Source of the DNA: Nitrosopumilus maritimus SCM1
GTDB lineage: Archaea; Thermoproteota; Nitrososphaeria; Nitrososphaerales; Nitrosopumilaceae
Length of the DNA: 32,000 nt
NCBI RefSeq assembly: GCF_000018465.1
Contig: NC_010085.1
Span: forward strand, 1,470,001 to 1,502,000
Reading direction: 5' to 3'
Part shown: in pieces, positions 20,172 through 32,000 of the stretch
Layout of the letters: each line of letters begins with the position of its first letter
How positions within the stretch are numbered: position 1 is the stretch's first letter
Made by a program: the position numbers and the translations under genes
The notes under the pieces: generated by a model
What the model was told of the DNA's origin: nothing
Seen by the model: the letters and a program-made list of their open reading frames with translations, nothing else
The model's database searches: none

Positions 20172-20930
20172 TCAATAATCTGGTCTGTATCCGTATCGTG
20201 TACCATAAGTGTATTCAGAACTGTGTGTTTTTTTGTAGAGATAACCAGTTGCAAATCCTATTGCAAATCCTCCAATGTGTGCCATGTATGCAACACCACC
20301 ACCTGCAACACCAAAGCCACCTATGAAAAATGGTAAGAGATTTTGGAAGACCAACCAAAATGGCAAGAACCATCGTGCTTGAATATGCATCATTCTCCAA
20401 AAGAAACCCAACATAAGAAAAGTGGTAATTCTAACTCTAGGGAACATTGCCAAGTATGCGCCAAGTACTCCAGAAATTGCTCCTGATGCGCCAACTGCAG
20501 GAATAGAACTTGTAGGATCAATTACAATGTGGGCAAAACCCGCACCAACTCCCCATGCAAGATAAATTAAAAGAAATTTTGCTTTGCCAAATTTTAGTTC
20601 AATATTATCACCAAAGATCCACAAAAATAACATGTTACCACCCAAATGCATCAAACCTCCGTGCATAAACATAGAACTAAACAATGAAAAGTACGGAGTA
20701 TCAGGACAAGAAATTCCTGGTTGAATCATTGATGAGAAACCAGTAATACAACTAGGAACTGCTCCCCATTCAAAAAACATGAATGCAGCACTTTGATTAG
20801 AAAATTCCCAAAATTGACCAGTAACAGCTACTTCGTAGAAAAATATTACAACATTGAGTATGATTAATCCAATTGTAATTTTTGGTTTGAATCCTGGAGG
20901 ATGTGGGTTTTCATCTCTTAATGGTAACAT
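20172..20930 (-). CDS. Rhomboid-family intramembrane serine protease
   Basis: Polytopic. HGGLMHLGGNMLFLWIFG (the H-x4-H-x3-N region) and the catalytic GASGAISGVLGA, followed by AHIGGF, are rhomboid hallmarks. Confidence 0.9.
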   Translation of the reverse strand: MLPLRDENPHPPGFKPKITIGLIILNVVIFFYEVAVTGQFWEFSNQSAAFMFFEWGAVPSCITGFSSMIQPGISCPDTPYFSLFSSMFMHGGLMHLGGNMLFLWIFGDNIELKFGKAKFLLIYLAWGVGAGFAHIVIDPTSSIPAVGASGAISGVLGAYLAMFPRVRITTFLMLGFFWRMMHIQARWFLPFWLVFQNLLPFFIGGFGVAGGGVAYMAHIGGFAIGFATGYLYKKTHSSEYTYGTRYGYRPDY

Positions 20931-20970
20931 TAGTTGTTTAGTTTCAATGAAATTTGTATAATAAGATTTT

Positions 20971-22524
20971 TCAATTTTGAATTTGTATTATTCCCTCTTT
21001 GATCAGAAATTGAATTCCTTGTACAAAGGCATCATCATCAATTGCACCTTCTGCCCACCACCCTGCATTGTTTTTAATCCATGCTGGAATTTCATTAGAA
21101 CCAGAATTTTCACCTGAAGATGTAGCAGGTATTAGTAGAACATTTTCTTTGATTAAAAATTGAATTCCTTGTACAAAGGCATCATCATCAATTGCACCTT
21201 CTGCCCACCAACCTGCATTGTTTTTAATCCATGCTGGAACAGTTTCAATTTCAGGCTCACTAGGATGAATTACTAGAATGAAATTACCTTTGGACAAAGA
21301 ATTTCCATCAATATTTGATAATACAAAATTTGCAGTTCCTACTTGATTTTCATTAAATTGTATTTTGTGTGAATTTGGCAATTCAGAATTTACATTTCCT
21401 ACCAAATGTTTTGAAAATATTTCAGAATTATTTTGAACTATTGATAAATCATATTCTACTATTTTCTTTGTTTTATCTGAAAAGATCTCTTCTAAACTAA
21501 GAAAGAATGTAACTTCTTTTCCAGATTTGATAACTTCAGGTTCCCATGACAAGAAAACTTTGTATCTTAAATCAGGAGTTGCGAATTCAAGAGGAAATTT
21601 CACCTCATCACTTGGTTGCAGTTCAAAAATTATCATATCATCAGAGTATTTTGAAGCATCATTACGAATTTGTTTTAGTAATTCTTGATTTAGAACAATG
21701 TGAATGGTTCTATCTTCAAATGAATAATCATCAATATTTACAGTATCATCAGGTAATGGAATGTCATTAACAATTGCTTGATATGTTGTAAAAAGAAAAT
21801 CTCCAAATGTGTTTGGAACTCTAAGCTCTTGATGAACCACACTTAGTTGTTCTAAATCTTGATTCCAATCAAAAGGCATAGAAATTGTTACTTTATTTGA
21901 ATCAAAATTAAATGAATCAAGTTTATCAAAATATGAAATAACTTGAATCGTTTGTTCATTATTTTGAGAATCTGATACTTGAAATGATTTTATTTCAGCT
22001 AGACTAATTGCTCCTTGTAGTTGTACTTCATCAGATAAAACATTGGAATCAGAATCAATAGATAGTATTTTGACATTATACTCATACAGGCCACCAGACA
22101 TGAAAATAGGACCCCGCATAATTAGAGATGATTCATTTTTTATCCAACCCCCTAGTACAGGCTCAATTTCTCCGTCTATAGTGATATTTTCAGAATTTTC
22201 AGTAATTACTTTGATTGATAGATATCCTAGTTCACCATGAAATATTTCTTTGAAAATTTGTTTGCCATCTTTTTTTAATTCAAATTCAAATGTAACATGT
22301 TCAATTATTGCATCAGTATTTGCATCAAACAATCGAAGTGAAATATATTTTTCAGATTCTTCAGGATCATATATTGAGGGAGAAATTGAAATTGAAAGCG
22401 ATGCATCTTTGTTTTCAATTTTAACTGGAGGCAAAACTTCTCCTCCTAATCCATGACCAAAAGCAAATGACGAACAAAGTGAAGATATTAAAAATGCAAA
22501 TAATATTGCGTTAAGAATTTTCAA
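20971..22524 (-). CDS. Secreted protein, paralogue family member A: signal peptide, beta-rich modules, two C-terminal aromatic 'WW-G-x-I-x-D' modules
   Basis: 517 aa. Signal peptide MKILNAILFAFLISSLCSSFAFG|HG. The C-terminus carries 2x PAWIKNNAGWWAEGAIDDDAFVQGIQFLIKE. The start codon is TTG (22522-22524); there is no nearby ATG. Confidence 0.8.
   Translation of the reverse strand: MKILNAILFAFLISSLCSSFAFGHGLGGEVLPPVKIENKDASLSISISPSIYDPEESEKYISLRLFDANTDAIIEHVTFEFELKKDGKQIFKEIFHGELGYLSIKVITENSENITIDGEIEPVLGGWIKNESSLIMRGPIFMSGGLYEYNVKILSIDSDSNVLSDEVQLQGAISLAEIKSFQVSDSQNNEQTIQVISYFDKLDSFNFDSNKVTISMPFDWNQDLEQLSVVHQELRVPNTFGDFLFTTYQAIVNDIPLPDDTVNIDDYSFEDRTIHIVLNQELLKQIRNDASKYSDDMIIFELQPSDEVKFPLEFATPDLRYKVFLSWEPEVIKSGKEVTFFLSLEEIFSDKTKKIVEYDLSIVQNNSEIFSKHLVGNVNSELPNSHKIQFNENQVGTANFVLSNIDGNSLSKGNFILVIHPSEPEIETVPAWIKNNAGWWAEGAIDDDAFVQGIQFLIKENVLLIPATSSGENSGSNEIPAWIKNNAGWWAEGAIDDDAFVQGIQFLIKEGIIQIQN
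21008..21242. repeat. 235-bp segment identical to 22707-22941 (copy A); contains an internal 83-bp unit twice (21007-21089, 21157-21239)
   Basis: Base-by-base comparison by eye at a constant offset of 1699 nt found no mismatch. The internal units differ at one position (21061 c vs 21211 a). Confidence 0.85.
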
Positions 22525-22567
22525 GATTTTTAAATTAGGAGAATCTGTTATAAAAAAATAATAGATG

Positions 22568-22605
22568 AGAAACTGGCAACCAAGATGACTCCTCCTAGTT
22601 TCTCA
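22568..22605 (-). terminator. Intergenic hairpin (8-bp stem GAGAAACT/AGTTTCTC, 22-nt loop) followed on the minus strand by a T-run; possible terminator or attenuator between paralogues B and A
   Basis: Stem arms at 22568-22575 and 22598-22605. On the minus strand the hairpin is followed by atctattattttttta, which merges into the TATA-like region of the downstream gene. Confidence 0.3.
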
Positions 22606-22675
22606 CCGACTATGGCCTGTAAGATGAGTTAATACAAAATAGATTAAAACATAATTGGTACATTCGTCGTATATA

Positions 22676-24547
22676 CTATACTTGTAAGATTCCATTTGTT
22701 ATCAAGAATTGAATTCCTTGTACAAAGGCATCATCATCAATTGCACCTTCTGCCCACCACCCTGCATTGTTTTTAATCCATGCTGGAATTTCATTAGAAC
22801 CAGAATTTTCACCTGAAGATGTAGCAGGTATTAGTAGAACATTTTCTTTGATTAAAAATTGAATTCCTTGTACAAAGGCATCATCATCAATTGCACCTTC
22901 TGCCCACCAACCTGCATTGTTTTTAATCCATGCTGGAACAGCAGGTTTTGTTTCTCCAACAGTTACTGATCCAATCATCCATGGGTGAAGAGTACAATAG
23001 TAGTCAAAAGTTCCATTTTCTTCAAATTTGAAGGAGAATTTTTCCCCTGCAGCCACAACCCCACTATCAAAGATACCAGAAGACCCTTCATCAGGAGTTC
23101 CAGATGTGACTGTATGAGCTGAACTGTCCTTGTTATCCCATAATACGATTTGATTAGGCTCAATAGTCAAACTAGCAGGAAGGTAACAAGAGTTATCTGT
23201 TTCACATCCGGGTAATGATGTTCCAATACCAATATCTACAAAATGATCACCAATCAATTCTTCTTTTGGTTCAGATACTTTGAATGAAAATTCTCCCGAA
23301 GTATCAAAGTTGTTTACATTTGAAATCCTTACAAGTGCCGCACCAACTTGATCAAAGTTTATTTTGACAGAATCAGTTCCGTCATGTGCTTCCAATCCCT
23401 GTTTTGATTCTATTATCCTACCATTAAGAAAAACATCTAGATCATAGACGTTTTGTTGAATAATTACATTAGAAATTGGATCATGGAATTCTATATGCAT
23501 TGTAACATCATTACCAGGATTAATTTTTCCTTTGGGTGTTAGAGATAAATGAAATTTCCAGTCTTCTTCAGAAGACAATTGAATTACTTTATCACCATTC
23601 TCTAATGAAGCATCACTTTTTTGAACATCTCTTAATTTGCCTGATTGAATGCCAAAGATCATTTTATCATTTAATTCAGGAGGATTTTCATCAATCATTT
23701 TCAATAATTTTTTTGATGAAAGTAAAAAGTGAACTACAATTTCCTCATTACCAGAACGATCAATTGTTCCAAAATAAGAAATATCATTTACAGTCAACAT
23801 TATATCATGATTTTCAAAAATATCTACTGTCTTTGGAATATAATATTCAGCATGAACAAAGGGAATTGATTCGATAAAGTCTTCATTCCAATCAAATAGC
23901 ATTTGTGCAGTAAGTTTTTTGTCTCTTTGATCATAGTGAAAGTTATCTATTTTATCAAAATATGTTGCAAACATCAAATCATGTGTTACATCATCAATGT
24001 CAATAGAAAATGGGATAAATTCTCCCATAGTAAACATAATTTGAAATGGTGTTTCAGTTTCAGATACGGGCTCATTTTCAATTGATAATAAGGTCATTTG
24101 AACATCAATTAGTCCCCCTTCCAAAAATAATGGAGCCTCAATAGTCAAAGGAGAATCATTTGAGGCTAGCCAGGCATCATTTTCTGCAGTTTCACCTGAA
24201 AAATTCACGTTAGAGCTAGGTATGATTAATGTTCGAAGTTTTTCATCAGGAGAATATGCATCAAATTCTACAATCAGATTTCCTTGTCCATCAAAGATCT
24301 CAACTTTATGTTCAACACCTAAAACTACTTGTCCAGTATCATCATTAATTGTTGTAATATCAAAAGTAACATGTTCTTCGTTTCCTTCTAAAATTGAAGG
24401 ACTTGTTTCTAATTGTACTTTGAAATAATTTTGGTTGATAAAAATAATATCACTTTCCTCACTACCAGAACCTCCACCATATGCGATTTGTGTTGATCCA
24501 AAAATCAAAAGTAGATAGAGAGCTCCAAGAAATAACTTATGATTCAT
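22676..24547 (-). CDS. Secreted protein, paralogue B: signal peptide, beta-rich modules, type-1 copper (cupredoxin/plastocyanin-like) domain, two C-terminal aromatic modules
   Basis: Signal peptide MNHKLFLGALYLLLIFGSTQIAYG (ATG at 24545-24547; the track start 24556 is TTG). Cupredoxin ligand pattern: SSAHTVTSG ... FDYYCTLHPWMIGSVTV (His, Cys, His, Met). The C-terminal 2x PAWIKNNAGWWAEGAIDDDAFVQGIQFLI is identical to paralogue A. Confidence 0.85.
   Translation of the reverse strand: MNHKLFLGALYLLLIFGSTQIAYGGGSGSEESDIIFINQNYFKVQLETSPSILEGNEEHVTFDITTINDDTGQVVLGVEHKVEIFDGQGNLIVEFDAYSPDEKLRTLIIPSSNVNFSGETAENDAWLASNDSPLTIEAPLFLEGGLIDVQMTLLSIENEPVSETETPFQIMFTMGEFIPFSIDIDDVTHDLMFATYFDKIDNFHYDQRDKKLTAQMLFDWNEDFIESIPFVHAEYYIPKTVDIFENHDIMLTVNDISYFGTIDRSGNEEIVVHFLLSSKKLLKMIDENPPELNDKMIFGIQSGKLRDVQKSDASLENGDKVIQLSSEEDWKFHLSLTPKGKINPGNDVTMHIEFHDPISNVIIQQNVYDLDVFLNGRIIESKQGLEAHDGTDSVKINFDQVGAALVRISNVNNFDTSGEFSFKVSEPKEELIGDHFVDIGIGTSLPGCETDNSCYLPASLTIEPNQIVLWDNKDSSAHTVTSGTPDEGSSGIFDSGVVAAGEKFSFKFEENGTFDYYCTLHPWMIGSVTVGETKPAVPAWIKNNAGWWAEGAIDDDAFVQGIQFLIKENVLLIPATSSGENSGSNEIPAWIKNNAGWWAEGAIDDDAFVQGIQFLITNGILQV
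22707..22941. repeat. 235-bp segment identical to 21008-21242 (copy B); internal 83-bp units at 22707-22788 and 22856-22938
   Basis: Same comparison as for copy A. The flanks diverge immediately outside the block. Confidence 0.85.
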
Positions 24548-24590
24548 GTCAATCAAAATGTTGTAAATTATTTTAAGTTAACAAAAATTC

Positions 24591-26402
24591 TCAGACTTTG
24601 ATTAATCCAGATGCCATCAAGAATTTGATTCCATTTGCAAATTCTACATCAGTAAGATGACCTTCAGACCACCAACCTGCATTATTTCTTACCCACATTG
24701 GAATTGATGTTATGTTTACATCTTCATCAACAATTTCTTCTGCAGCAGATACACTAATGATATTTTCTTGAACTAGATACTCAATACCTTTTGCAAAGTC
24801 TGGATCATTGATTTGTCCATCAGACCACCACATTGCATTCTTCTTTACCCAATCCGGAATTGCAATGTCAGTTGAAACAGAAGTTATTGTAGGTTTTGAC
24901 ATATCAATGTCACTTGAAACCGGAGTTACTGTAGGTCTAGGTGTTTCAACAAATATCTCTGAATCATCTGAAACCATATGAACGCCAGTATCAAGAACTA
25001 ATGCTCTTGCAACTATTTCCATACTATCAGCAGTAGTGTATGGTCGTGGTAATGTAATGTCTTCATATTCAATGTAAATTGTATCACCATTTGTAACTCT
25101 CAATCTATTTTGCTCTTGAGAAGAATCTCCAGTGGTCATAAAGAACTCGCCTGGAAGATAATTGATATAGTGAGGATGTTCATATCCTACAAAGTAATTA
25201 GGAGTACTTCCAACTTCAAAGGAACCATGTCTAGGTACAACTTCTTCTAAAATTGCTTCAGGTGCAACTTGGAATGAGAAATTTACTTCTTGACCAGGTT
25301 GATCAAAGATGTTAGAAACTACAATTTTAGCAGAGCCTCTCTCATCAAAGCGAATTGGTTCTACACCTTGTCCGTCTACCCAATATTGATCATTTCTTGA
25401 TTCAATTAATTCACCGTTAAGATAGATATCCATATCATAAGACAATCCCATCTCGTGGATGTCAGTTAAGCCATCATGAACCATTAAGTTAAAGTCATAA
25501 TCTTGATCAACACCAATTACACCACCTGGTTCAGTCCAGAGATATGTTTTCCATTCTCCATCAGGAGTGTATTTTGTTAATGAGCTTGCAGCTGGTTCAC
25601 TCAAGTGACGATCATATACTGCATTCTGAATTTTTGCATGATCCATATCTTTTACAAATTGAACACCAACAAATATTCCTGCTTTATCTGAATCTGAATA
25701 TACTTTAACATAATTTGTGAAAAATTCTCGGTGGTGCTTCCACAAGTCGGTATCACGTATGAAAAATGTGACTTTTTCATTTACATCATAGGTATCTTTG
25801 TGGAATTCAGCTTGTCCCATTTGCCAAGTATAATATGCAGTTTTGTAAACATGTTGATCTTCATTATATTCCCAGTCAACTGTTAATCTACCATCTTGTG
25901 TAGATGTTGCAATCATTACAGCCCTATCATGTGCTGAAATATTCATTCCATCTGGATCCATAGTCATTCCAGGTGTTTTAACAGTAGTAAGAAATGTATC
26001 ATGAACAGTATAACGCATTGCACCTGTCAATTTTACAACTCCCATGAATATGCCAGTATCAGGGCCAGTTTCTGTAAACTCAACGCCATTTACACGGTTG
26101 GCATCAGTGTAGACATCAATTGGATTTGATGTGGTACCAATTTGTTCAATTTTATCATCATCCTCGTTCCATCCTGGAGCATAAATCAAGACGTTTACTC
26201 TATCAGTCCAGCCAATTCCTTCATATCTTTCATTACAATCTTGTAGTTTGAAAGTTTCATTTGCACAGAATTTCATTATAATTCCTGCTGATTTTTGTAC
26301 ATTTGTAAAACCAGTATCAGCTAAGACTGGGGATATTGTAATTGTAGATGTTAAAATTACCATAAATGCGAAAATTGCAATTGTTCCCATACTTTTTGCC
26401 AT
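24591..26402 (-). CDS. Secreted protein, paralogue C: signal peptide, large beta-rich region, two diverged C-terminal aromatic modules
   Basis: Likely start MAKSMGTIAIFAFMVILTSTITISPVLA|D (ATG 26400-26402; the track start 26462 adds 20 aa before the signal peptide). C-terminal modules are IPDWVKKNAMWWSDGQINDPDFAKGIEYLV and IPMWVRNNAGWWSEGHLTDVEFANGIKFLM. The segment YDMDIYLNGELIES...AKIVVSNI...FSFQV is related to segments in paralogues A and B. Confidence 0.8.
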   Translation of the reverse strand: MAKSMGTIAIFAFMVILTSTITISPVLADTGFTNVQKSAGIIMKFCANETFKLQDCNERYEGIGWTDRVNVLIYAPGWNEDDDKIEQIGTTSNPIDVYTDANRVNGVEFTETGPDTGIFMGVVKLTGAMRYTVHDTFLTTVKTPGMTMDPDGMNISAHDRAVMIATSTQDGRLTVDWEYNEDQHVYKTAYYTWQMGQAEFHKDTYDVNEKVTFFIRDTDLWKHHREFFTNYVKVYSDSDKAGIFVGVQFVKDMDHAKIQNAVYDRHLSEPAASSLTKYTPDGEWKTYLWTEPGGVIGVDQDYDFNLMVHDGLTDIHEMGLSYDMDIYLNGELIESRNDQYWVDGQGVEPIRFDERGSAKIVVSNIFDQPGQEVNFSFQVAPEAILEEVVPRHGSFEVGSTPNYFVGYEHPHYINYLPGEFFMTTGDSSQEQNRLRVTNGDTIYIEYEDITLPRPYTTADSMEIVARALVLDTGVHMVSDDSEIFVETPRPTVTPVSSDIDMSKPTITSVSTDIAIPDWVKKNAMWWSDGQINDPDFAKGIEYLVQENIISVSAAEEIVDEDVNITSIPMWVRNNAGWWSEGHLTDVEFANGIKFLMASGLIKV

Positions 26403-26470
26403 ATGAAATCTAAAACATTGTTTTGAATATAATGGGAATGGTTCATTCGATAAATGTACCATTAGATCTA

Positions 26471-27802
26471 TTATTTGACCTCAACGTGACAGGAATGGAA
26501 ATGTTCACTCCATTTTGAATGACCTACAAATCTTTTTGACTCAAATTCTTGCAGGTCAGTAAATGTAGTACTAGTTTTACCAACTGTGTTTCCCTTGGCA
26601 TCCAAAAAAGATATTGAGAGTTCGACTTGAGGTCGCTTTAGATGATCATTATGATATTGACCAGAAATTGTTACTAGTCCAAAATCATCACGTATACATG
26701 AAAAATTTTCTACACCTTGAATTGCAGATTTTTCTGGTTCAATAGATTTCGGTACAGTTTGAATTGGATTAGAAGAGTCTTGGGAAATATTTTCTTGAAT
26801 ATCTTTTTGTAAAATATGATGTAATTGAGAACTCATGTGATCATTATTGAAATACGCAATTTTTTTTAGAATTTCACTCATAAATCTAGTTGTAGGCTCG
26901 GTTTCATCTAAGATTAGATCAGAGACATCATAATTGTAGTGTTCATTATGTTGATCAAATATGATAACATGTATTATGAAATTTTCATAAATGCATGATG
27001 TTAATCCACCCTTTGAAGTATAGTTAAACAAACATTCAGAATTTTCATTTGGGTTTCCACTAAGATATGCAGATTCGAATACTTTGTCTTTATTTTCAAA
27101 AGAATTCCAATAGTCATCTAAATCATTTTTGTTGTTAAATTCAATTATTTGCATTGTTAATGTAGGTACTTTGAATTTGTAAAAAATTGGTTCGTATACT
27201 CTAGTAATGTCATTGAAAATAATTTTGACAGAATCTACAACACCTTCTTTTTCTTCAAATTCATATTCAGTTGAAAATGTTCTCCACTTTGTCTCTTTTG
27301 TAATATTCAAAATTTCTTTATCATTTAACAAATATTTTTCAAGACTTGATTGGAATGTTTCATCATTTGAAAAGATACTTTGCTCGGGGTTGTATTCTAG
27401 ATACCCAACTTCTCTCAAGTAATGAATTGTTCTAAGAAATTGTAAATCACTTATTTTTCCATCAATCCACCATTCTGCTCTATCTTTAACCCAATATGGA
27501 ATTAATTCTAAAGTCTTTTCTTCGTATAATTCGGGAATATCTTGAATTACAGTTTTTGCAGTATTGATTAGAATTTCTTGTGATTTTATTTCATCAGGTA
27601 TGATATTTTTATCAAGAATGTTTTGAATTAGTGCTAAAAATTCAGAATCAGACATTTGCCCATCTATCCAGATAGAAGTAGTCTGTCTTACCCAATCAGG
27701 GAATATGCTAGGCTCAGAATCATCTCCAAAAACAGGATTTTGGAGTGAAATTACAAGTAAGAGGACAGTGATTGCAAATAATGAACTGATTTTTAGATTC
27801 AT
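26471..27802 (-). CDS. Secreted protein, paralogue D: signal peptide followed by two N-terminal aromatic modules, then an unrelated C-terminal region
   Basis: ATG at 27800-27802 (MNLKISSLFAITVLLLVISLQNPVFG) shares one nt with the upstream TGA (27802-27804). Modules: FPDWVRQTTSIWIDGQMSDSEFLALIQNIL and IPYWVKDRAEWWIDGKISDLQFLRTIHYL. Confidence 0.8.
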   Translation of the reverse strand: MNLKISSLFAITVLLLVISLQNPVFGDDSEPSIFPDWVRQTTSIWIDGQMSDSEFLALIQNILDKNIIPDEIKSQEILINTAKTVIQDIPELYEEKTLELIPYWVKDRAEWWIDGKISDLQFLRTIHYLREVGYLEYNPEQSIFSNDETFQSSLEKYLLNDKEILNITKETKWRTFSTEYEFEEKEGVVDSVKIIFNDITRVYEPIFYKFKVPTLTMQIIEFNNKNDLDDYWNSFENKDKVFESAYLSGNPNENSECLFNYTSKGGLTSCIYENFIIHVIIFDQHNEHYNYDVSDLILDETEPTTRFMSEILKKIAYFNNDHMSSQLHHILQKDIQENISQDSSNPIQTVPKSIEPEKSAIQGVENFSCIRDDFGLVTISGQYHNDHLKRPQVELSISFLDAKGNTVGKTSTTFTDLQEFESKRFVGHSKWSEHFHSCHVEVK

Positions 27803-29169
27803 CAAGTAGAAACCTCCTTTGAGAATTGTGATAGTGCATCTCCAAAGTCAGCATCACTGGAATCATACTTTGCATACTCTACACTTCCACAAAGTAACAG
27901 CCAACCTCTTACCTTGCCAAATGCATCTGATTTTGATTCATCAAGCACACTTAGTAACTCTTGGTTTGTCATTTCTTTGTAAATTTCCATATTTTGTGAA
28001 TAATAGTATCGAATTGCCTGACTGAGTGTTTCAAATGCTTCTTTTCTTTGATTATTATCAAACAAATTCTGAGATTTGTTTATCATTTGTTGAGTTAATT
28101 CTCTAAAGTCAGTTTGAGGCTTTGACACTTGCAATAGTGGTTCTTCATACTTTCTTTCTGATAATTTCTTGCGCAATAGATATCCAAATACTGCTAATGC
28201 AACAAATACTGGAATAATCAAGAGTAGTGAAATATTTTCAAAGCTTTGTGTAGGTGCAGTTACTTGGAACGGATTACTCTGTAATGAATCACGTATGTGT
28301 CTTGTATTTTCGAACTTTGGTTTTTCAAATTTGAAATTATCAAATATGTTTTCTGGTTCACTTGTAGGTGCAGAAACAGCTATACCAGTATCAGGTAATT
28401 TACCAGGTGGAAGCTGTTCACCAGACAATATACCATCAAATAGTTGCAGAGTCTGTTCAGAGAATGCATCATTCATTCTTTCTTGAATTTGTTCTTTAGT
28501 TAGTAAGAGATAGTTTGGAGAGTATTCCCTTAGATCAAACTCACCCTCACCACTAAACGTAGCATCTTCCATCATTTGTCTACCAAGTGTGAATTCTTTA
28601 GGAGTAAAGATGTCGTTTGGAATTGCTGCTAAATTATCCATACTGTATCCACGTTCAAGCACAAAAAGCTCCAAGTTTGAGTTTGGATTATAATCAAATG
28701 CCTGACCTTTTATCAAATATCTACTATCTCCAATAGGATCAAGCAAAGCTTCTGCAATTTCGACATAGCCATCAGAAAATCGGTCATAATATTTTATTTT
28801 ATGTTTAAAACTTTCTTGTCTAAGATCTCGTTGTTCAATTAGCATTCCATTTAGAATTTGACCTTCTTCTGAATCAATTGTAATTTTATAATCTCCAATA
28901 GAGTAGTTGTTACCTGTAATGAATTTATCATAAATTGGTTTTACAGATTCTGTATTTTCTACTACCAATTCTTCATAGCTGGAAACTATTTCAGCTTCTT
29001 GCGTTGTAACATGTTCTTTTTCAAGTTGCCCTTCAATTAACCAATCCATTTGAATTTCGGTAGATTCTGCAAATGCAGGATTCACAGCTATGAGAGGTAA
29101 TAACAAAAAGATTCCAATAATTTTTTTGCTAAAAAGTAAAGAGTTATGCGACAATTCTATACCTGCCAT
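27802..29169 (-). CDS. Type I membrane protein: signal peptide, ~290-aa extracytoplasmic domain, one TM helix, ~120-aa cytoplasmic helical tail (DUF4129-like by eye)
   Basis: Signal peptide IIGIFLLLPLIAVNPAFA|E. TM helix ISLLLIIPVFVALAVFGYLL followed by RKK. The tail AIRYYYSQ...MTNQELLSVL...CGSVEYAKYDSS resembles the DUF4129 pattern seen next to MoxR/DUF58 genes. It overlaps the vWA gene by 26 nt. Confidence 0.75.
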   Translation of the reverse strand: MAGIELSHNSLLFSKKIIGIFLLLPLIAVNPAFAESTEIQMDWLIEGQLEKEHVTTQEAEIVSSYEELVVENTESVKPIYDKFITGNNYSIGDYKITIDSEEGQILNGMLIEQRDLRQESFKHKIKYYDRFSDGYVEIAEALLDPIGDSRYLIKGQAFDYNPNSNLELFVLERGYSMDNLAAIPNDIFTPKEFTLGRQMMEDATFSGEGEFDLREYSPNYLLLTKEQIQERMNDAFSEQTLQLFDGILSGEQLPPGKLPDTGIAVSAPTSEPENIFDNFKFEKPKFENTRHIRDSLQSNPFQVTAPTQSFENISLLLIIPVFVALAVFGYLLRKKLSERKYEEPLLQVSKPQTDFRELTQQMINKSQNLFDNNQRKEAFETLSQAIRYYYSQNMEIYKEMTNQELLSVLDESKSDAFGKVRGWLLLCGSVEYAKYDSSDADFGDALSQFSKEVST

Positions 29170-30094
29170 AAATTATGTAAGCATCAATTAGCAATAATCC
29201 AATTGCAGCAGCTATAAACCAATCTCTTATTGTAGAATATTCAATTTCATAAGCAAGATTAGAGCTAAGATTAACAAAAATTTCATTTAATGTTTGCTCA
29301 TCAAGTGATTTGTAGTAATTTCCAGAGGTTTGTTGTGCAATAATTACAAGTGTTTCTTCATCTAATTCTGCATATTGTGGTTCGCCATAGATATCATCTC
29401 TTAGAAAAACAGGTTCAATTGAACCTAATCCAATTGTATGAATTTGGACATTGTTGATTTTTGCATACTCTGTTGCTTCTTCTGGTGTTACTAATCCGGA
29501 ATTATGTACTCCGTCACTCAGTAAGATCACTACACCTTTCTTGTCAGGAATTGATGAAGCCATATCTACTCCAAGTGCAAGTCCATCTCCAATGGCAGTA
29601 GCACCCAATCCTTGTTCTATTGATGAAATTGCATTAACTGATTTTTCTTTATCAGGTGTAAGGTAAGAAACAGTTGTTGCACCTGACTCAAAGAGAACAA
29701 CTCCCACATTATGCTGAGGTCCCATTTTTAGAATCAGATTATTTATGGCGTTTTTTGCAGCATCCAGACGTGTTGGCTCATAATCTGTGGCTGCCATACT
29801 TTCAGAACCATCTAAAACTATGCTCAAATTGATGCCATTTTCAACTGATAGTGTTGGGATTTGAGGATTTGCAAGTCCAATAATTGCCAATCCGAGAATC
29901 CCCATCATCAAGACAAATGGCAAATGTTTTCGCAGAAAGTTTTTGCCCATTACAGATTTTTTTACAATTTTTAGTGAGCTAAATTTCATGATAGAATCTT
30001 TTTTCTCAGAATTGTATTTTGAATAAAGAACATACAATCCAGGAATTATCAAAAGCAAAAATAATGCATAAAGATATTCAAAATGAATTTCCAT
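29144..30094 (-). CDS. Membrane-anchored von Willebrand factor A domain protein (BatA-like)
   Basis: Two N-terminal TM helices and one C-terminal TM helix. vWA MIDAS motif VLDGSESM (D-x-S-x-S), then LLSDGVHN. The gene directly abuts DUF58 (stop at 30095-30097, ATG at 30092-30094). Confidence 0.85.
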   Translation of the reverse strand: MEIHFEYLYALFLLLIIPGLYVLYSKYNSEKKDSIMKFSSLKIVKKSVMGKNFLRKHLPFVLMMGILGLAIIGLANPQIPTLSVENGINLSIVLDGSESMAATDYEPTRLDAAKNAINNLILKMGPQHNVGVVLFESGATTVSYLTPDKEKSVNAISSIEQGLGATAIGDGLALGVDMASSIPDKKGVVILLSDGVHNSGLVTPEEATEYAKINNVQIHTIGLGSIEPVFLRDDIYGEPQYAELDEETLVIIAQQTSGNYYKSLDEQTLNEIFVNLSSNLAYEIEYSTIRDWFIAAAIGLLLIDAYIIYGRYRIVA

Positions 30095-30967
30095 CTATTT
30101 TCTCCTCCGAGTATGAATATAGCGATTAAATGTAACATCAAAGGGTTCCTCATTTGAAAGATTCAAAAAATCAACTCCCAGTTTTTTCATTTCATATTCA
30201 ATTTCTTCTCTAGTCTTCTTAATAAGATTAGAATACTCTTCTTGGAATTTTTTATCAGAAGTGTTTACCAGTATTTGTTCTCCAGATTCTGCATCCTCTA
30301 GATATACATGACCAATTTCAGGAATCTCTGTTTCACGAATATCAGAAATATTTACTAAAACAATTTGATGTTTTAATTTTAGATATTGCAATGGCTTTAC
30401 GAATGAATCTGACATAAAATCTGAAACAACAAAAACAACACTTCGACGTTTTAGATTTTTTTGTAATTCTGATAATGATCTAAAGATATCTGTTTGTGTA
30501 CTTTGAGGAGTGTATTCTAATAATTTTTTTAAAATTTCCATCATGTGTTTTTTGCCTTTTTTTGCAGGAACAAATTTTTCCAATGAATCTGTAAAAAGAC
30601 CCAATCCAACTCTGTCATTGTTCTTTAGTGCAGAAAACATCAGAGAAGCTGTTATCTCAAATCCAAGTTCTTTTTTACTCTTTACAAAACCAAAGTCATT
30701 ACTTGCAGACATGTCCATTACAACATAGACGTTAAGCTCTTTTTCTTCGACAAACTCTTTTACAAAAAGATCATTGTATCTAGCTGAAACATTCCAATCC
30801 ACTCTTCTGGCATCATCACCAGCTGCATACTCTCTAACCTCAGAGAACTCAATTCCTCCACCTCTAAATCTGGACCTGTAGGCACCAGATTCCATGCCTT
30901 CGACTAGATTTTTGGTCTTGATATCCAGGTTTTTTACCTGCTTCAAGAGTTCTGTGAGTTCAGTCAT
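30095..30967 (-). CDS. DUF58 family protein (degenerate vWA-like, MoxR partner)
   Basis: GGGIEFSEVREYAAGDDARRVDWNVSAR and YVVMDMSASN are the DUF58 signature. It sits 9 nt downstream of moxR. Confidence 0.85.
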   Translation of the reverse strand: MTELTELLKQVKNLDIKTKNLVEGMESGAYRSRFRGGGIEFSEVREYAAGDDARRVDWNVSARYNDLFVKEFVEEKELNVYVVMDMSASNDFGFVKSKKELGFEITASLMFSALKNNDRVGLGLFTDSLEKFVPAKKGKKHMMEILKKLLEYTPQSTQTDIFRSLSELQKNLKRRSVVFVVSDFMSDSFVKPLQYLKLKHQIVLVNISDIRETEIPEIGHVYLEDAESGEQILVNTSDKKFQEEYSNLIKKTREEIEYEMKKLGVDFLNLSNEEPFDVTFNRYIHTRRRK

Positions 30968-30976
30968 GGCCTAAAC

Positions 30977-31999
30977 CTAAGGCGGATTGATTTTTTCTAA
31001 AACAAAGTCAATTACCTTATCAGAGGTAATTCCGTTTGCTTCTGCCTCAAATGTCAAAATTATTCTATGTCTGAGAACTTCGTGTGCAACAGCTTTGACA
31101 TCTTCTGGAATAATGAAGCCCCTTCCATTAAGCATGGCATTTGCTTTTGCAGTTCTCATTAACCAAATTGATGCTCTAGGAGATGCTCCAAACTCTATCA
31201 TATTTTCTAAATCTAGATCATAGTCTTTTGGAGTTCGTGTTGCATTTACAATATCTGCGATATATTCTGTAACTACTTTATCAGCATAAATTTTTTCATT
31301 GAATTTTTGAATTTCTAAAATTTCTTCAGGACTGATAATTGTATTTACTTTATCTTCTTGTTCAGATGAATTTTTTTCAATAATCTCGAGTTCTTCTTGT
31401 TTTGAAGGATAATCAATTAAAATTTTCAGAGCAAATCTATCAACTTGTGCTTCAGGAAGTTTGTATGTTCCCTCGTTTTCAATTGGGTTTTGTGTTGCAA
31501 GAACTAGGAATGGTTTTTTTAATTCAAATGTGTCTCCGTGTATGCTGACATTTCTTTCTTGCATTGCTTCAAGTAATGCTGATTGGACTTTGGGTGGTGC
31601 ACGATTAATCTCATCAGCAAGCACAAAATTATGAAATATCGGACCCTTTTGTGTTACAAATGATCCTGAGGCATTCTTGTAAATTTTTGTTCCTAAAATA
31701 TCTGCTGGAAGTAAATCGGGTGTAAATTGAATTCTAACATGATCAACATTGAAAATTTGTGCCATTGTCTTTACCATCAATGTCTTTGCTAAACCAGGAA
31801 CACTCTCTAAGAGTACATGGCCATCAGCTATTATTGAAATGAGAATTTTCTGTAAAGCGTCTTGTTGTCCAATCACAACTTTATGAGATTCTTCAAAAAC
31901 TGCATTTAGTTTCTTTGCATACTTTTGAGCTTGCTCACTTAGCTTTTTGATATCTTCATTTGATACCGAATAGTTTACGTGATTCTCTCTCAGTGCCAT
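30977..31999 (-). CDS. MoxR-family AAA+ ATPase (AAA_3)
   Basis: 340 aa. VVIGQQDALQKILISIIADGHVLLESVPGLAKT (Walker A), VLADEINRAPPKVQSALLEAMQE (Walker B / sensor region) and ATQNPIENEGTYKLPEAQVDRF. ATG at 31997-31999, 1 nt from the window edge, so an upstream start cannot be excluded. Confidence 0.92.
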   Translation of the reverse strand: MALRENHVNYSVSNEDIKKLSEQAQKYAKKLNAVFEESHKVVIGQQDALQKILISIIADGHVLLESVPGLAKTLMVKTMAQIFNVDHVRIQFTPDLLPADILGTKIYKNASGSFVTQKGPIFHNFVLADEINRAPPKVQSALLEAMQERNVSIHGDTFELKKPFLVLATQNPIENEGTYKLPEAQVDRFALKILIDYPSKQEELEIIEKNSSEQEDKVNTIISPEEILEIQKFNEKIYADKVVTEYIADIVNATRTPKDYDLDLENMIEFGASPRASIWLMRTAKANAMLNGRGFIIPEDVKAVAHEVLRHRIILTFEAEANGITSDKVIDFVLEKINPP

Positions 32000-32000
32000 G

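What the first reader, a model, noticed from the sequence alone, without database searches (positions are those of the whole stretch)
20172..31999. Candidate undescribed envelope system: MoxR-DUF58-vWA-membrane protein module in one array with four secreted repeat-bearing paralogues (one cupredoxin) and a rhomboid protease
Seen: nine consecutive minus-strand genes. The junctions are a 9-nt gap (30977/30967), direct abutment (30095/30094), a 26-nt overlap (29144-29169) and a one-nt stop/start overlap (27800-27804). Gaps of 68 (or 8), 43 (or 34), 151 and 40 nt follow. The first four genes are a Bat-operon-like MoxR/DUF58/vWA set plus a single-pass membrane protein. The fifth gene, a secreted protein, is translationally coupled to that set, which argues for a functional link. 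Established: MoxR AAA+ / vWA pairs act as maturation or cofactor-insertion chaperones (CoxD/CoxE for the Cu-Mo site of CO dehydrogenase, NorQ/NorD for NO reductase, CbbQ/CbbO for Rubisco). The classical MoxR-DUF58-BatA operon has no defined substrate. Inference: this module may have dedicated extracytoplasmic clients. These would be a family of surface proteins, including a blue-copper protein, whose assembly, metal loading or anchoring it assists. The downstream rhomboid could process the single-pass member. In an organism whose energy metabolism relies on periplasmic copper proteins, this is worth testing.
Basis: partly seen in the sequence, partly recalled or inferred. Interest (0 to 1): 0.8.

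Follow-up and report, generated by a model that had tools for sequence, protein, structure and literature searches.

The report
MoxR-linked envelope island of Nitrosopumilus
A marine ammonia-oxidising archaeon keeps a membrane-spanning AAA+ ATPase module beside a fixed set of secreted surface proteins (one blue-copper, one S-layer-like). The pairing survives many genome rearrangements, which suggests, but does not prove, that they work together at the cell envelope.

Summary
The nine minus-strand genes, their junctions and the repeated aromatic module are all real.

- **Gene 4 (455 aa) is the hub.** Its transmembrane helix and cytoplasmic helical tail mark the fourth gene of a self-contained MoxR-DUF58-BatA operon. 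That operon also occurs in a bacterium and another archaeon, with unrelated neighbours.
- **Genes 5-7 stay with gene 4.** In every thaumarchaeal lineage sampled (GC 25-53%), gene 4 sits beside gene 5, and almost always beside gene 6 (homologous to the membrane-proximal domains of the S-layer protein) and gene 7 (cupredoxin). This holds through at least six rearrangements and changed flanks.
- **The MoxR triad is usually adjacent.** It is absent within 10 kb in one or two lineages.
- **Looser neighbours.** Gene 8 and the rhomboid are not part of the conserved set.
- **The aromatic module is not a client tag.** It is a two-helix, Trp-rich unit found in many secreted proteins far from any MoxR. 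It is replaced by a CFI-box membrane anchor in distant orthologues, so it is probably a general surface-attachment device.
- **The island continues past base 32000.** It carries a recurrent metal theme.

The function remains inferred. I rate it a new variant of the Bat-type MoxR/vWA operon.

The parts
30977..31999 (-). g1: MoxR-type AAA+ ATPase (340 aa), cytoplasmic
   Evidence: Pfam AAA_3 E 1.2e-62 and AAA_lid_2 1.7e-22. Walker A (GLAKT) and Walker B (LADEINR) motifs are present.
30095..30967 (-). g2: DUF58 protein (290 aa), a vWA-like cytoplasmic partner of MoxR
   Evidence: Pfam DUF58 E 3.7e-69. DMSAS MIDAS motif at aa 85. No TM segment.
29144..30094 (-). g3: BatA-type membrane vWA protein (316 aa). 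Three TM segments; the vWA domain (aa 89-273, nt 29276-29830) is predicted to face outward.
   Evidence: Pfam BatA, VWA and VWA_2. NCBIfam BatA-like. TM segments at aa 5-23, 54-72 and 292-310, with a Lys-rich loop between TM1 and TM2. DGSES MIDAS motif. The homologue BB0173 has three TM helices and a periplasmic vWA domain (PMC5700661).
27802..29169 (-). g4: hub protein (455 aa). It has a signal/anchor sequence, a thaumarchaeon-specific acidic ectodomain, a TM helix (aa 313-335, nt 28165-28233) and a cytoplasmic four-helix tail (aa 336-455, nt 27805-28164).
   Evidence: No Pfam family. 722 close homologues, all named ones Nitrosopumilus or Thaumarchaeota. The tail is conserved in fourth genes of MoxR operons elsewhere. 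In the AF2 model the tail has pLDDT 80-89 and the ectodomain below 50.
26471..27805 (-). g5: secreted 444-aa protein. Two N-terminal aromatic modules (nt 27596-27703 and 27395-27502) and a C-terminal FxLYD-like domain.
   Evidence: Signal peptide. Module HMM hits. NCBIfam FxLYD_dom E 2.6e-5. Adjacent to g4 in every locus with enough DNA.
24591..26462 (-). g6: secreted 623-aa protein. It carries S-layer-protein-like segments (nt 25662-26216 and 24996-25154), an Ig-like domain and two C-terminal modules (nt 24753-24860 and 24597-24704).
   Evidence: phmmer against PDB 8c8k (N. maritimus S-layer protein) gives E 2.1e-23. g6 aa 83-267 match aa 1376-1552, and aa 437-489 match aa 1563-1614. That stretch is the membrane-proximal base of the S-layer: domain 8 is modelled up to about aa 1499 and domain 9 up to 1616 (PMC11153153).
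22676..24556 (-). g7: secreted 626-aa protein. It has a beta-sandwich core paralogous to g8, a type-1 cupredoxin domain (nt 22958-23194) and two C-terminal modules (nt 22832-22939 and 22682-22789).
   Evidence: Pfam Copper-bind 31.3 bits against cut-off 21.2. Best PDB matches are thaumarchaeal-type cupredoxins 9cck and 5fc9. AHTV...YYCTLHPWM ligands are present. 29% identical to g8 over 530 aa.
20971..22524 (-). g8: secreted 517-aa protein of the His1 beta-sandwich family, with two C-terminal modules (nt 21133-21240 and 20983-21090). It is a lineage-specific extra copy, not a conserved member.
   Evidence: The mature N-terminus HGLGG is conserved in the g8, U1 and U2 families. H1, H208, E210, D242 and H252 are invariant. 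The AF2 model has pLDDT 80.7, three beta-sandwich domains and two helix-turn-helix modules. Found only in the window, L002, L013 and L026.
20172..20930 (-). g9: rhomboid intramembrane serine protease (252 aa). It is a neighbour of the island, not a conserved member.
   Evidence: Pfam Rhomboid E 3e-32; rhombosortase model 21 bits against cut-off 84. It is retained next to the nitrilase gene where g1-g7 are absent. It is absent from L020, L107, L112, L113 and L114.
20983..21242 (-). 260-nt stretch encoding the g8 module pair, 97% identical to nt 22682-22941 of g7 (recent gene conversion or duplication)
   Evidence: the repeat finder family D2. The rest of g7 and g8 is only about 29% identical at protein level.

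Best explanation
The region is most of a conserved envelope gene island of marine Thaumarchaeota (Nitrosopumilaceae and relatives).

**The core module (shown).** The core is a Bat-type, membrane-spanning MoxR module.
- MoxR (g1) and DUF58 (g2) are cytoplasmic.
- BatA (g3) is a three-TM protein whose MIDAS-bearing vWA domain faces the space under the S-layer.
- g4 is a single-pass protein. Its TM helix and cytoplasmic four-helix tail are the signature of the fourth gene of such operons in other phyla. Its ectodomain is specific to Thaumarchaeota.

**The linked proteins (shown).** Three acidic secreted proteins are genomically tied to g4. These are g5, g6 (homologous to the membrane-proximal part of the S-layer protein) and g7 (beta-sandwich core plus blue-copper domain). 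A His-rich 4-TM protein, an ArsR/MarR-type double winged-helix regulator and the module protein U4 recur with the island in most lineages where enough DNA was available (within reach in L001, L017, L020, L112, L113, L114; U4 was not found in L112). In this genome they would lie beyond the window end.

**How it works (inferred).** The shared cytoplasmic tail docks g4 to the MoxR/DUF58 ATPase. ATP-driven remodelling then acts through g4 and BatA on the assembly, positioning or metal state of g5-g7 in the pseudo-periplasm.

**The aromatic module (shown, with an inferred role).** It is a two-helix, Trp-rich unit. It is a general surface-attachment device of many secreted proteins, not a tag for MoxR clients.

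**Not part of the set.** g8 and the rhomboid are neighbours only.

In short, the anatomy, the homologies and the conserved neighbourhood are shown. The physical coupling, any ATP-dependent action on g5-g7 and any role in copper handling are inferred.
For: **1. g4 belongs to the MoxR module.**
- A profile search finds 356 representatives. The distant ones (500-600 aa) match only the membrane-proximal region, the TM helix and the tail.
- Two of them are the fourth gene, with 4-nt overlaps, of MoxR-DUF58-BatA operons in a bacterium (L102) and in an archaeon (L105).
- The tail motif K.A..A.R.Y.S..E.T..E..C..VEFAKY..F is conserved throughout.
- L113 carries both a canonical fourth gene and a thaumarchaeal g4 with the same tail.

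**2. g4-g5-g6-g7 stay together.**
- They are together in 21 species representatives with g4 identity from 90 down to 37%.
- They are also together in L026, L052, L068, L069, L076, L107-L110 and L112-L115.
- This spans GC 0.25-0.53 and at least six gene orders and orientations.
- The flanks differ: nitrilase/thiolase, TatC and PurS, PHO4/PhoU, cytochrome b, AmoC.

**3. The MoxR triad accompanies them.**
- It is adjacent to g4 in all of these except L107/L108 and L109.
- L084 keeps a truncated g3 next to U4 and the rhomboid. This is a deletion scar showing loss of g1-g7 as one block.

**4. The topology allows trans-membrane coupling.** BatA-type vWA domains face the periplasm (PMC5700661). g4 has a positively charged stretch after its TM helix and a confidently folded tail.

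**5. The partners belong to the envelope.**
- All have signal peptides and pI 4.2-4.7.
- g6 is homologous to the membrane-proximal part of NmSLP, aa 1376-1614.

**6. Role of the aromatic module.**
- The AF2 model shows a helix-turn-helix for each module.
- Distant g7 and U2-type orthologues replace the modules with a CFI-box-CTERM anchor, E 1e-20.
- The module occurs at the N- or C-terminus of diverse secreted proteins.
Against: - There is no expression, interaction or phenotype data. The library holds no paper linking MoxR to ammonia-oxidising archaea.
- The four-gene MoxR operon is self-contained elsewhere, with unrelated neighbours. It does not need such clients.
- In L107/L108 and L109 the g4-g7 set has no MoxR triad within 10 kb, so g4-g7 may work without it. 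Whether a triad lies elsewhere in those genomes could not be checked.
- Nitrosopumilus genomes are highly syntenic in general. The housekeeping flanks are also conserved in close relatives. Only the distant lineages, each seen once or twice, discriminate.
- Translational coupling is not conserved. g5 is inverted in about 11 loci and the triad is divergent in about 17.
- The g4 ectodomain could not be modelled (pLDDT below 50).
- No docking surface for MoxR or DUF58 has been demonstrated.
Confidence: 0.5

Rival explanations
1. Coincidental adjacency. An ordinary, self-contained Bat-like MoxR operon with a general envelope or stress function happens to sit inside a surface-protein island. The two stay together only because these small genomes rearrange little.
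For: - The operon occurs alone with unrelated neighbours in other phyla.
- Housekeeping flanks are also syntenic among close Nitrosopumilus genomes.
- The g4-g7 set exists without an adjacent triad in L107-L109.
- Module proteins are mostly elsewhere.
Against: - Adjacency survives at least six rearrangements, a GC range of 0.25-0.53 and complete turnover of the flanks.
- g4 shares its tail with the canonical fourth gene and, in this genome, sits in that slot.
- The block is lost as a unit.
Confidence: 0.28
2. Copper-handling island. The module and its partners acquire, buffer or insert copper for proteins of the pseudo-periplasm. The MoxR/vWA pair acts as a metal-insertion chaperone across the membrane.
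For: - g7 has an intact type-1 copper site.
- Distant g7 orthologues replace the cupredoxin with His/Met-rich repeats, and a g6 orthologue has His-rich inserts.
- The g7/g8/U1/U2 superfamily has an invariant H..E..D..H constellation and usually a mature N-terminal His.
- The island carries a 4-TM protein with five invariant His and an ArsR/MarR-type regulator.
- A plastocyanin-like gene lies in the upstream block.
- Copper-limited N. viennensis induces ArsR, DsbD and blue-copper genes of unknown function (PMC7785015). L109 has a DsbD-like gene next to the set.
Against: - No metal binding has been shown.
- g1 is not of the CbbQ/NorQ/CoxD type.
- His-rich and acidic surface proteins are common.
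- Fold search gave only generic Ig-like matches.
Confidence: 0.15
3. [quoted passage not shown]
For: - g6 is homologous to the membrane-proximal part of NmSLP, aa 1376-1614.
- The S-layer anchor in N. maritimus is unresolved (PMC11153153).
- The modules are interchangeable with a membrane anchor.
Against: - NmSLP itself lacks the aromatic module.
- The g1-g7 block can be deleted in some lineages, which argues against an essential S-layer role.
Confidence: 0.1
4. The rhomboid (g9) processes g4 or the secreted paralogues as a dedicated protease of the system.
For: - The rhomboid follows the island in 12 of 21 species loci.
- It has GASG and AHIGG catalytic motifs.
Against: - It stays with the nitrilase gene where g1-g7 are missing (L033, L035, L039, L062, L073, L080, L084).
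- It is absent from the island in L002, L004, L020, L021, L107 and L112-L114.
- It is not a rhombosortase (21 bits against cut-off 84).
Confidence: 0.05
5. An anti-phage or conflict system of the MoxR-vWA ternary type.
For: - Weak bpMoxR hit, E 1e-11.
- Weak DolB hit, E 2.9e-5.
Against: - AAA_3 scores far higher, at 210 bits.
- There is no PADLOC family for g2-g8.
- There is no effector or beta-propeller partner.
- The location is chromosomal and stable across species.
Confidence: 0.02

Closest known systems
Bat (Bacteroides aerotolerance) operons and their spirochaete counterparts (Borrelia bb0170-bb0176, Leptospira batABD)
   Same: - MoxR AAA_3 ATPase, a DUF58 protein and a BatA-type three-TM vWA protein in that order.
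- The vWA domain faces the extracytoplasmic side (PMC5700661).
- No defined substrate.
   Different: - No BatB, BatC (TPR), BatD or BatE (SH3) genes.
- The fourth gene is a single-pass protein with a helical cytoplasmic tail and, here, a thaumarchaeon-specific ectodomain.
- It is conserved beside a set of secreted proteins.
Four-gene MoxR-DUF58-BatA-'fourth gene' operon in a Vulcanimicrobiota bacterium MAG and an unnamed archaeon (L102, L105)
   Same: - Same order, sizes and 4-nt overlaps.
- The fourth protein shares the TM helix and tail with g4.
   Different: - Its ectodomain is a different one: a beta-sandwich plus a Gln-rich segment.
- It often has an Rx4-6H motif in the tail that the window protein lacks.
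- There are no g5-g7 or module proteins nearby.
MoxR/vWA metal-centre or enzyme maturation pairs (CoxD/CoxE, NorQ/NorD, CbbQ/CbbO)
   Same: [quoted passage not shown] In these systems genomic linkage to the client is the main clue to function.
   Different: - Those ATPases are of the CbbQ/NorQ/CoxD types with soluble vWA partners and cytoplasmic or membrane-enzyme clients.
- Here the ATPase is of the AAA_3 type, the vWA domain is outside the membrane and the candidate partners are secreted.
Nitrosopumilus maritimus S-layer protein NmSLP (Nmar_1547, PDB 8c8k)
   Same: g6 aa 83-267 and 437-489 are homologous to NmSLP aa 1376-1614, the membrane-proximal base of the lattice.
   Different: - g6 is 623 aa, not 1734.
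- It has an inserted Ig-like domain and two aromatic modules that NmSLP lacks.
C-terminal surface-anchoring devices (CFI-box-CTERM, PGF-CTERM, SLH domains)
   Same: The aromatic module pair occupies the position that a CFI-box-CTERM anchor holds in distant orthologues. It is shared by many unrelated secreted proteins.
   Different: - It is not a transmembrane segment or a known sorting signal.
- It is a soluble two-helix Trp-rich unit, can be N-terminal (g5) and has no Pfam or NCBIfam model.

Membership tests
Bat-type MoxR operon | MoxR ATPase of the AAA_3 type with an AAA_lid_2 domain | tested here: met
   g1: AAA_3 210 bits and AAA_lid_2 79 bits.
Bat-type MoxR operon | Adjacent DUF58 protein | tested here: met
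   g2: DUF58 232.6 bits, 9 nt downstream of g1.
Bat-type MoxR operon | BatA: N-terminal BatA domain, vWA domain with MIDAS motif, three TM helices | tested here: met
   g3: BatA 31.7 bits against cut-off 25.9, and VWA 66.7 bits. Three hydrophobic segments. DGSES motif.
Bat-type MoxR operon | Further Bat genes (BatB second vWA, BatC TPR, BatD, BatE SH3) | tested here: not met
   No such domains in the window or in the loci. Only 1 of 75 distant g4 relatives has a weak BatD hit, E 0.0012.
Bat-type MoxR operon | Aerotolerance or oxidative-stress phenotype | not testable with these tools
   Needs genetics or physiology.
CoxD/NorQ/CbbQ-type maturation chaperones | ATPase of the CbbQ/NorQ/CoxD subfamily with a soluble NorD/CbbO/CoxE-type vWA partner next to the client enzyme | tested here: not met
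   g1 is best matched by AAA_3; the AAA_5 hit is only 43.8 bits. There are no CbbQ_C or VWA_CoxE hits. The vWA partners are DUF58 and membrane BatA.
DUF4381 (small TM protein of bacterial MoxR operons) | Match to PF14316 at or above its gathering score | tested here: inconclusive
   g4 and 14 close homologues give no hit even at E 10. Two of 75 distant relatives hit below the cut-off (25.4 bits against 27.2; best E 9.9e-6) over the TM helix and tail.
HEPN domain (for the g4 tail) | Four-helix HEPN fold with an Rx4-6H motif | tested here: inconclusive
   Foldseek best hits are HEPN proteins, but at E 0.16-0.2. Pfam HEPN hits occur in 2 of 75 distant relatives. Distant relatives have RxxxxH, whereas the window protein has RYYYSQ.
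Type-1 (blue) copper cupredoxin | Cupredoxin domain above the family threshold, with His, Cys, His and Met ligands | tested here: met
   g7 aa 457-533: PF00127 31.3 bits against 21.2. PDB 9cck 6.7e-16 and 5fc9 6.4e-12. AHTV...YYCTLHPWM.
Rhomboid protease / rhombosortase | Rhomboid domain with catalytic Ser and His. For a rhombosortase, also a match to TIGR03902 at its cut-off. | tested here: met
   Rhomboid: met. PF01694 scores 112 bits, and GASG and AHIGG motifs are present. Rhombosortase: not met. TIGR03902 scores 21 bits against cut-off 84.
Thaumarchaeal S-layer protein (NmSLP family) | Full array of about ten Ig-like domains forming the lattice | tested here: not met
   g6 matches only NmSLP aa 1376-1552 and 1563-1614. 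It is an S-layer-related protein, not an S-layer protein.
CFI-box-CTERM proteins | C-terminal NF041770 domain | tested here: not met
   None of g4-g8 has it. Distant orthologues of g7 and U2, and the neighbour U5, do have it at E about 1e-20.
Histidine-brace copper proteins (LPMO, CopC-like) | Mature N-terminal His plus a second His forming a copper site on a beta-sandwich | tested here: inconclusive
   His1 follows the signal peptide in the g8, U1 and U2 families and in distant g7 proteins. H208 and H252 are invariant. The model is a beta-sandwich, but fold hits are generic: GbpA at E 1e-4 with TM below 0.2. The geometry could not be inspected.
Anti-phage defence systems (PADLOC) | Match to a defence-system model | tested here: not met
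   Only a weak generic AAA+ hit of g1 to DolB, 21.5 bits.

The most novel reading that the evidence does not exclude
Marine ammonia-oxidising archaea possess a dedicated ATP-powered trans-membrane machine. A cytoplasmic MoxR/DUF58 motor is coupled, through the g4 tail and BatA, to an extracytoplasmic platform. That platform loads copper into, or assembles, a set of pseudo-periplasmic proteins beneath the S-layer: the g7 blue-copper protein, the His1 beta-sandwich family and the S-layer-like g6. The whole is sensed and regulated by a His-rich 4-TM protein and an ArsR-type regulator. This would give the substrate-less Bat-type MoxR operons their first defined clients. It would also give marine ammonia oxidisers a copper-handling pathway.
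Probability: 0.15. Interest if true: 0.85.

Novelty: new variant of a known kind. Interest (0 to 1): 0.6.

Why it matters
**An open question about MoxR operons.** Bat-type MoxR-DUF58-BatA operons are very widespread, and no substrate is known for them. This thaumarchaeal version is unusual in two ways. A recognisable component of the module, the fourth gene, has acquired a lineage-specific ectodomain. It is also held beside the same three secreted proteins across deep rearrangements. That yields concrete candidate partners to test.

**Relevance to ammonia oxidisers.** These organisms dominate marine nitrification and depend on extracytoplasmic copper proteins. How marine strains handle copper is unknown. 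What anchors and populates the space under their S-layer is also unknown.

**New sequence families.** The work defines three families that have no Pfam or NCBIfam model:
- the Trp-rich two-helix attachment module;
- the His1 beta-sandwich family, which NCBI labels 'peptidase';
- the g4 hub family.

Tried and rejected
- **Pfam scan of g4 and 14 homologues at E 10.** No DUF4381 or DUF4129 hit. My recalled resemblance is supported only weakly, through distant relatives.
- **Module-only homologue search.** The tandem-pair profile returned only short fragments, of limited value.
- **Metagenome scan with the broad module alignment.** A narrower alignment worked, but it is biased toward U1/g8-type modules.
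- **Structure prediction of g8 with locus-derived homologues.** Redone with database hits.
- **AF2 model of g4.** The ectodomain could not be modelled.
- **Profile comparison of g4 with the g8 family.** No relationship.
- **Comparison of A1 with A5.** Circular, because A5 contains the window protein. Not used as evidence.
- **Module profile against PDB.** Only chance hits to HIV MPER epitope scaffolds, E 0.24 or higher.
- **Literature searches.** Nothing was found on MoxR, DUF58 or vWA in ammonia-oxidising archaea, or on the CFI-box.
- **N. maritimus SCM1 locus tags.** I could not determine them, so published copper-limitation datasets could not be queried.
- **The L107 lineage.** I could not check whether it holds a MoxR triad elsewhere on its 916-kb contig.
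- **Bacterial promoter and terminator scans.** Not used, because they do not apply to archaea.

Full report
**1. Observation**

The junctions read as described in the sequence. These are a 9-nt gap g1/g2, an abutment g2/g3, a 26-nt overlap g3/g4 and a TGATG overlap g4/g5. Then come gaps of 8 (or 68), 34 (or 43), 151 and 40 nt.

Domain searches gave the following:
- g1 is a MoxR ATPase (AAA_3, AAA_lid_2).
- g2 is a DUF58 protein.
- g3 is a BatA-type vWA protein with an intact MIDAS motif.
- g7 contains a type-1 cupredoxin with all four ligands.
- g9 is a rhomboid.
- g4, g5, g6 and g8 have no Pfam family.

The aromatic module occurs twice in each of g5-g8 and nowhere else in the window.

Three cautions apply.
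- Almost the whole window is transcribed from the minus strand, so co-orientation says little.
- The 'paralogues' are heterogeneous.
- The array is truncated by the window end.

**2. Anatomy**

- **g3** has two N-terminal TM segments separated by a Lys-rich loop, then the vWA domain and a third TM segment. The Borrelia homologue BB0173 has this arrangement, with the vWA domain in the periplasm (PMC5700661).
- **g4** has an N-terminal signal/anchor sequence, an acidic ectodomain of about 280 aa, one TM helix followed by LRKKLSERK, and a 120-aa tail. AlphaFold models the tail confidently as a helical bundle. The ectodomain is not modelled.
- **g5-g8** all have signal peptides and pI 4.2-4.7.
- **g6** is homologous (E 2e-23) to residues 1376-1614 of the N. 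maritimus S-layer protein. That stretch is the membrane-proximal base of the lattice (PMC11153153).
- **g8** was modelled with 69 homologues (pLDDT 80.7). It consists of three beta-sandwich domains followed by two helix-turn-helix units, which are the aromatic modules. Fold search returned only generic Ig-like strings.

**3. Comparative genomics anchored on g4**

A scan of species-representative genomes gave 21 loci with g4 identity from 90 down to 37%. I annotated them with the window proteins and a module HMM.

- The MoxR triad and g5 flank g4 in all loci with enough DNA.
- g6 and g7 follow in nearly all.
- The triad is inverted (divergent from g4) in about half of the loci, and g5 is inverted in about a third.
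- Most loci also carry further genes upstream of MoxR:
  - three more module proteins (U1, U2, U4);
  - a 4-TM protein (U3) with five invariant histidines;
  - a double winged-helix ArsR/MarR-type regulator;
  - a CFI-box protein;
  - a plastocyanin-like gene.

More distant lineages keep the same set in yet other orders and with different flanks.

| Locus | GC | Arrangement |
|---|---|---|
| L110 | 0.53 | MoxR divergent from g4; g5 inverted; g6 follows |
| L112 | 0.35 | MoxR divergent; g4, g5, then regulator and U3, then g7 and g6 inverted |
| L113 | 0.33 | g4 and g5 convergent with a full MoxR operon that has its own fourth gene; U4, regulator and U3 nearby |
| L114 | 0.30 | Triad divergent; g4, inverted g5, g6, g7, U3, regulator, U4 |
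| L115 | 0.25 | MoxR divergent; g4; g5 inverted (short contig) |
| L107/L108, L109 | 0.32, 0.35 | g4 with g5 and g6 (plus g7 in L107/L108; a different module protein follows g5 in L109); no MoxR triad within 10 kb |

**4. g4 outside Thaumarchaeota**

An exhaustive profile search found 356 representatives. The distant ones match only the membrane-proximal part, the TM helix and the tail.

- Two of them are the fourth, overlapping gene of MoxR-DUF58-BatA operons. One is in a Vulcanimicrobiota bacterium and one in another archaeon. Their neighbours are unrelated and include no module proteins.
- The tail motif is conserved across all of them.
- L113 has both a canonical fourth gene inside its MoxR operon and a thaumarchaeal g4 with g5. 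g4 is therefore a paralogue that kept the tail and changed the ectodomain.
- In the window, g4 occupies the fourth-gene slot.

This is the strongest argument that g4 connects the ATPase module to g5-g7.

**5. Comparative genomics anchored on the module**

A metagenome scan with a module-pair alignment returned 80 loci, which I annotated.

- Only a few contain g1-g4.
- Many show the U1-U2-U3-U4 block.
- Many others show module proteins in at least four unrelated recurrent contexts. These proteins have diverse architectures, with N- or C-terminal modules.
- In L033, L035, L039, L073 and L080 the block ends with U4 and runs straight into the rhomboid and nitrilase genes. In L062 it does so after U2.
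- L084 retains a truncated g3 at that junction. The g1-g7 block can therefore be lost as a unit, while U1-U4 and the rhomboid remain.
- In sponge-type lineages, orthologues of g7 and U2 lack the modules (g7 also lacks the cupredoxin). They end in His/Met-rich repeats plus a CFI-box-CTERM anchor.

Taken together, the module looks like a general attachment device and not a mark of MoxR clients.

**6. Metal theme**

- g7 has a blue-copper site, which distant orthologues replace with His/Met-rich repeats.
- The g7/g8/U1/U2 superfamily has invariant H208, E210, D242 and H252 (mature g8 numbering). It usually also has a His as the first mature residue.
- U3 has five invariant His and sits next to an ArsR-type regulator.
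- In N. viennensis, copper limitation induces ArsR, DsbD and blue-copper genes of unknown function (PMC7785015).

This is suggestive only. No metal binding was tested, and I could not inspect the model coordinates.

**7. Mechanism and rivals**

| Explanation | Confidence |
|---|---|
| Thaumarchaeal variant of the four-gene Bat-type module. g4, with BatA, couples the cytoplasmic MoxR/DUF58 ATPase to g5-g7 in the pseudo-periplasm. | 0.5 |
| Coincidental adjacency of an independent Bat-like operon and a surface-protein island | 0.28 |
| Copper-handling island (a more specific version of the best explanation) | 0.15 |
| S-layer anchoring or assembly system | 0.1 |
| Rhomboid as a dedicated protease of the system | 0.05 |
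| Anti-phage or conflict system | 0.02 |

The dedicated-rhomboid idea is contradicted by the gene's distribution. The defence-system idea is excluded as far as these libraries can tell.

**8. Comparison with known systems**

- The module meets the defining features of the MoxR-DUF58-BatA core of Bat operons. It lacks BatB through BatE.
- It does not belong to the CoxD/NorQ/CbbQ chaperone families.
- The relation of the g4 tail to DUF4381 or HEPN is only hinted at.
- No paper in the library connects MoxR or vWA genes with ammonia-oxidising archaea.

I therefore classify it as a new variant of a known kind. It comes with three sequence families that lack Pfam and NCBIfam models.

**9. Limits**

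- All evidence is comparative and structural prediction.
- Several distant lineages are each represented by a single contig.
- Absence of the triad was judged only within 10 kb.
- Start codons and transcription units are inferred.

Noticed in passing
window 20983-21242 and 22682-22941: The DNA encoding the C-terminal module pairs of g8 and g7 is 97% identical over 260 nt. The rest of the two proteins is only about 29% identical. This looks like recent gene conversion between paralogues.
   Followed up: partly
L001 4958-5377 and 5370-5870 (upstream of MoxR, beyond window base 32000); also L017, L020, L112, L113, L114: A 4-TM protein of about 130 aa has five invariant histidines and two invariant glutamates. 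It overlaps the start of a 166-aa double winged-helix ArsR/MarR-type regulator. The pair travels with the island in these lineages. It may be a metal sensor and regulator.
   Followed up: partly
L017 14553-16889, L018 14431-17061, L020 14822-17212, L017 187-2220: In sponge-type, GC-rich relatives the g7 and U2 orthologues lack the aromatic modules (g7 also lacks the cupredoxin). They carry long His/Met-rich repeats (HEAMMKE..., DEHGHGDD...) and a CFI-box-CTERM domain instead.
   Followed up: partly
window 20971-22524 (g8), and the U1, U2 and distant g7 families in many loci: The mature proteins start with His directly after the signal peptide (G|HGLGG). They share invariant H208, E210, D242 and H252. 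NCBI names these proteins 'peptidase' without support from any model.
   Followed up: partly
L084 14280-14843: A truncated BatA gene (only aa 130-315) lies between U4 and the rhomboid. It is a deletion scar of the whole g1-g7 block.
   Followed up: yes
L010 10064-11299 and 12719-16143: In this genome g4 is split into two ORFs and g7 is missing, while g6 has three modules. This is either decay of the set or an error in the assembly.
   Followed up: no
P0307, P0332, P0297, P0347, L020 g4, L113 2898-4361: The cytoplasmic tail of the generic fourth gene carries an Rx4-6H motif (AIRLYLSH and similar) and resembles HEPN four-helix bundles weakly. The window g4 has Gln in place of the His.
   Followed up: partly
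L110 2540-3200: A HEPN / nucleotidyltransferase toxin-antitoxin pair is inserted between g4 and the inverted g5 in one GC-rich lineage.
   Followed up: no
L113 97-7237: One lineage has two members of the g4 family side by side. One is a canonical fourth gene abutting BatA. The other is a thaumarchaeal-type g4 overlapping g5, convergent with the MoxR operon.
   Followed up: partly
window 14428-16599: A 723-aa ORF combines an N-terminal HTH (HTH_20, DUF7347), an ATP-cone and a partial match to the anaerobic ribonucleotide reductase family NRDD. It sits next to an 884-aa ribonucleotide reductase large-subunit gene (Ribonuc_red_lgC barrel). This is an unusual architecture in an aerobic ammonia oxidiser.
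   Followed up: no
module copies, e.g. window 21133-21240: The only PDB sequence hits of the module profile are chance-level matches (E 0.24 or higher) to scaffolds carrying the Trp-rich membrane-proximal epitope of HIV gp41. This is a reminder that such Trp-rich helices can sit at membrane interfaces.
   Followed up: no
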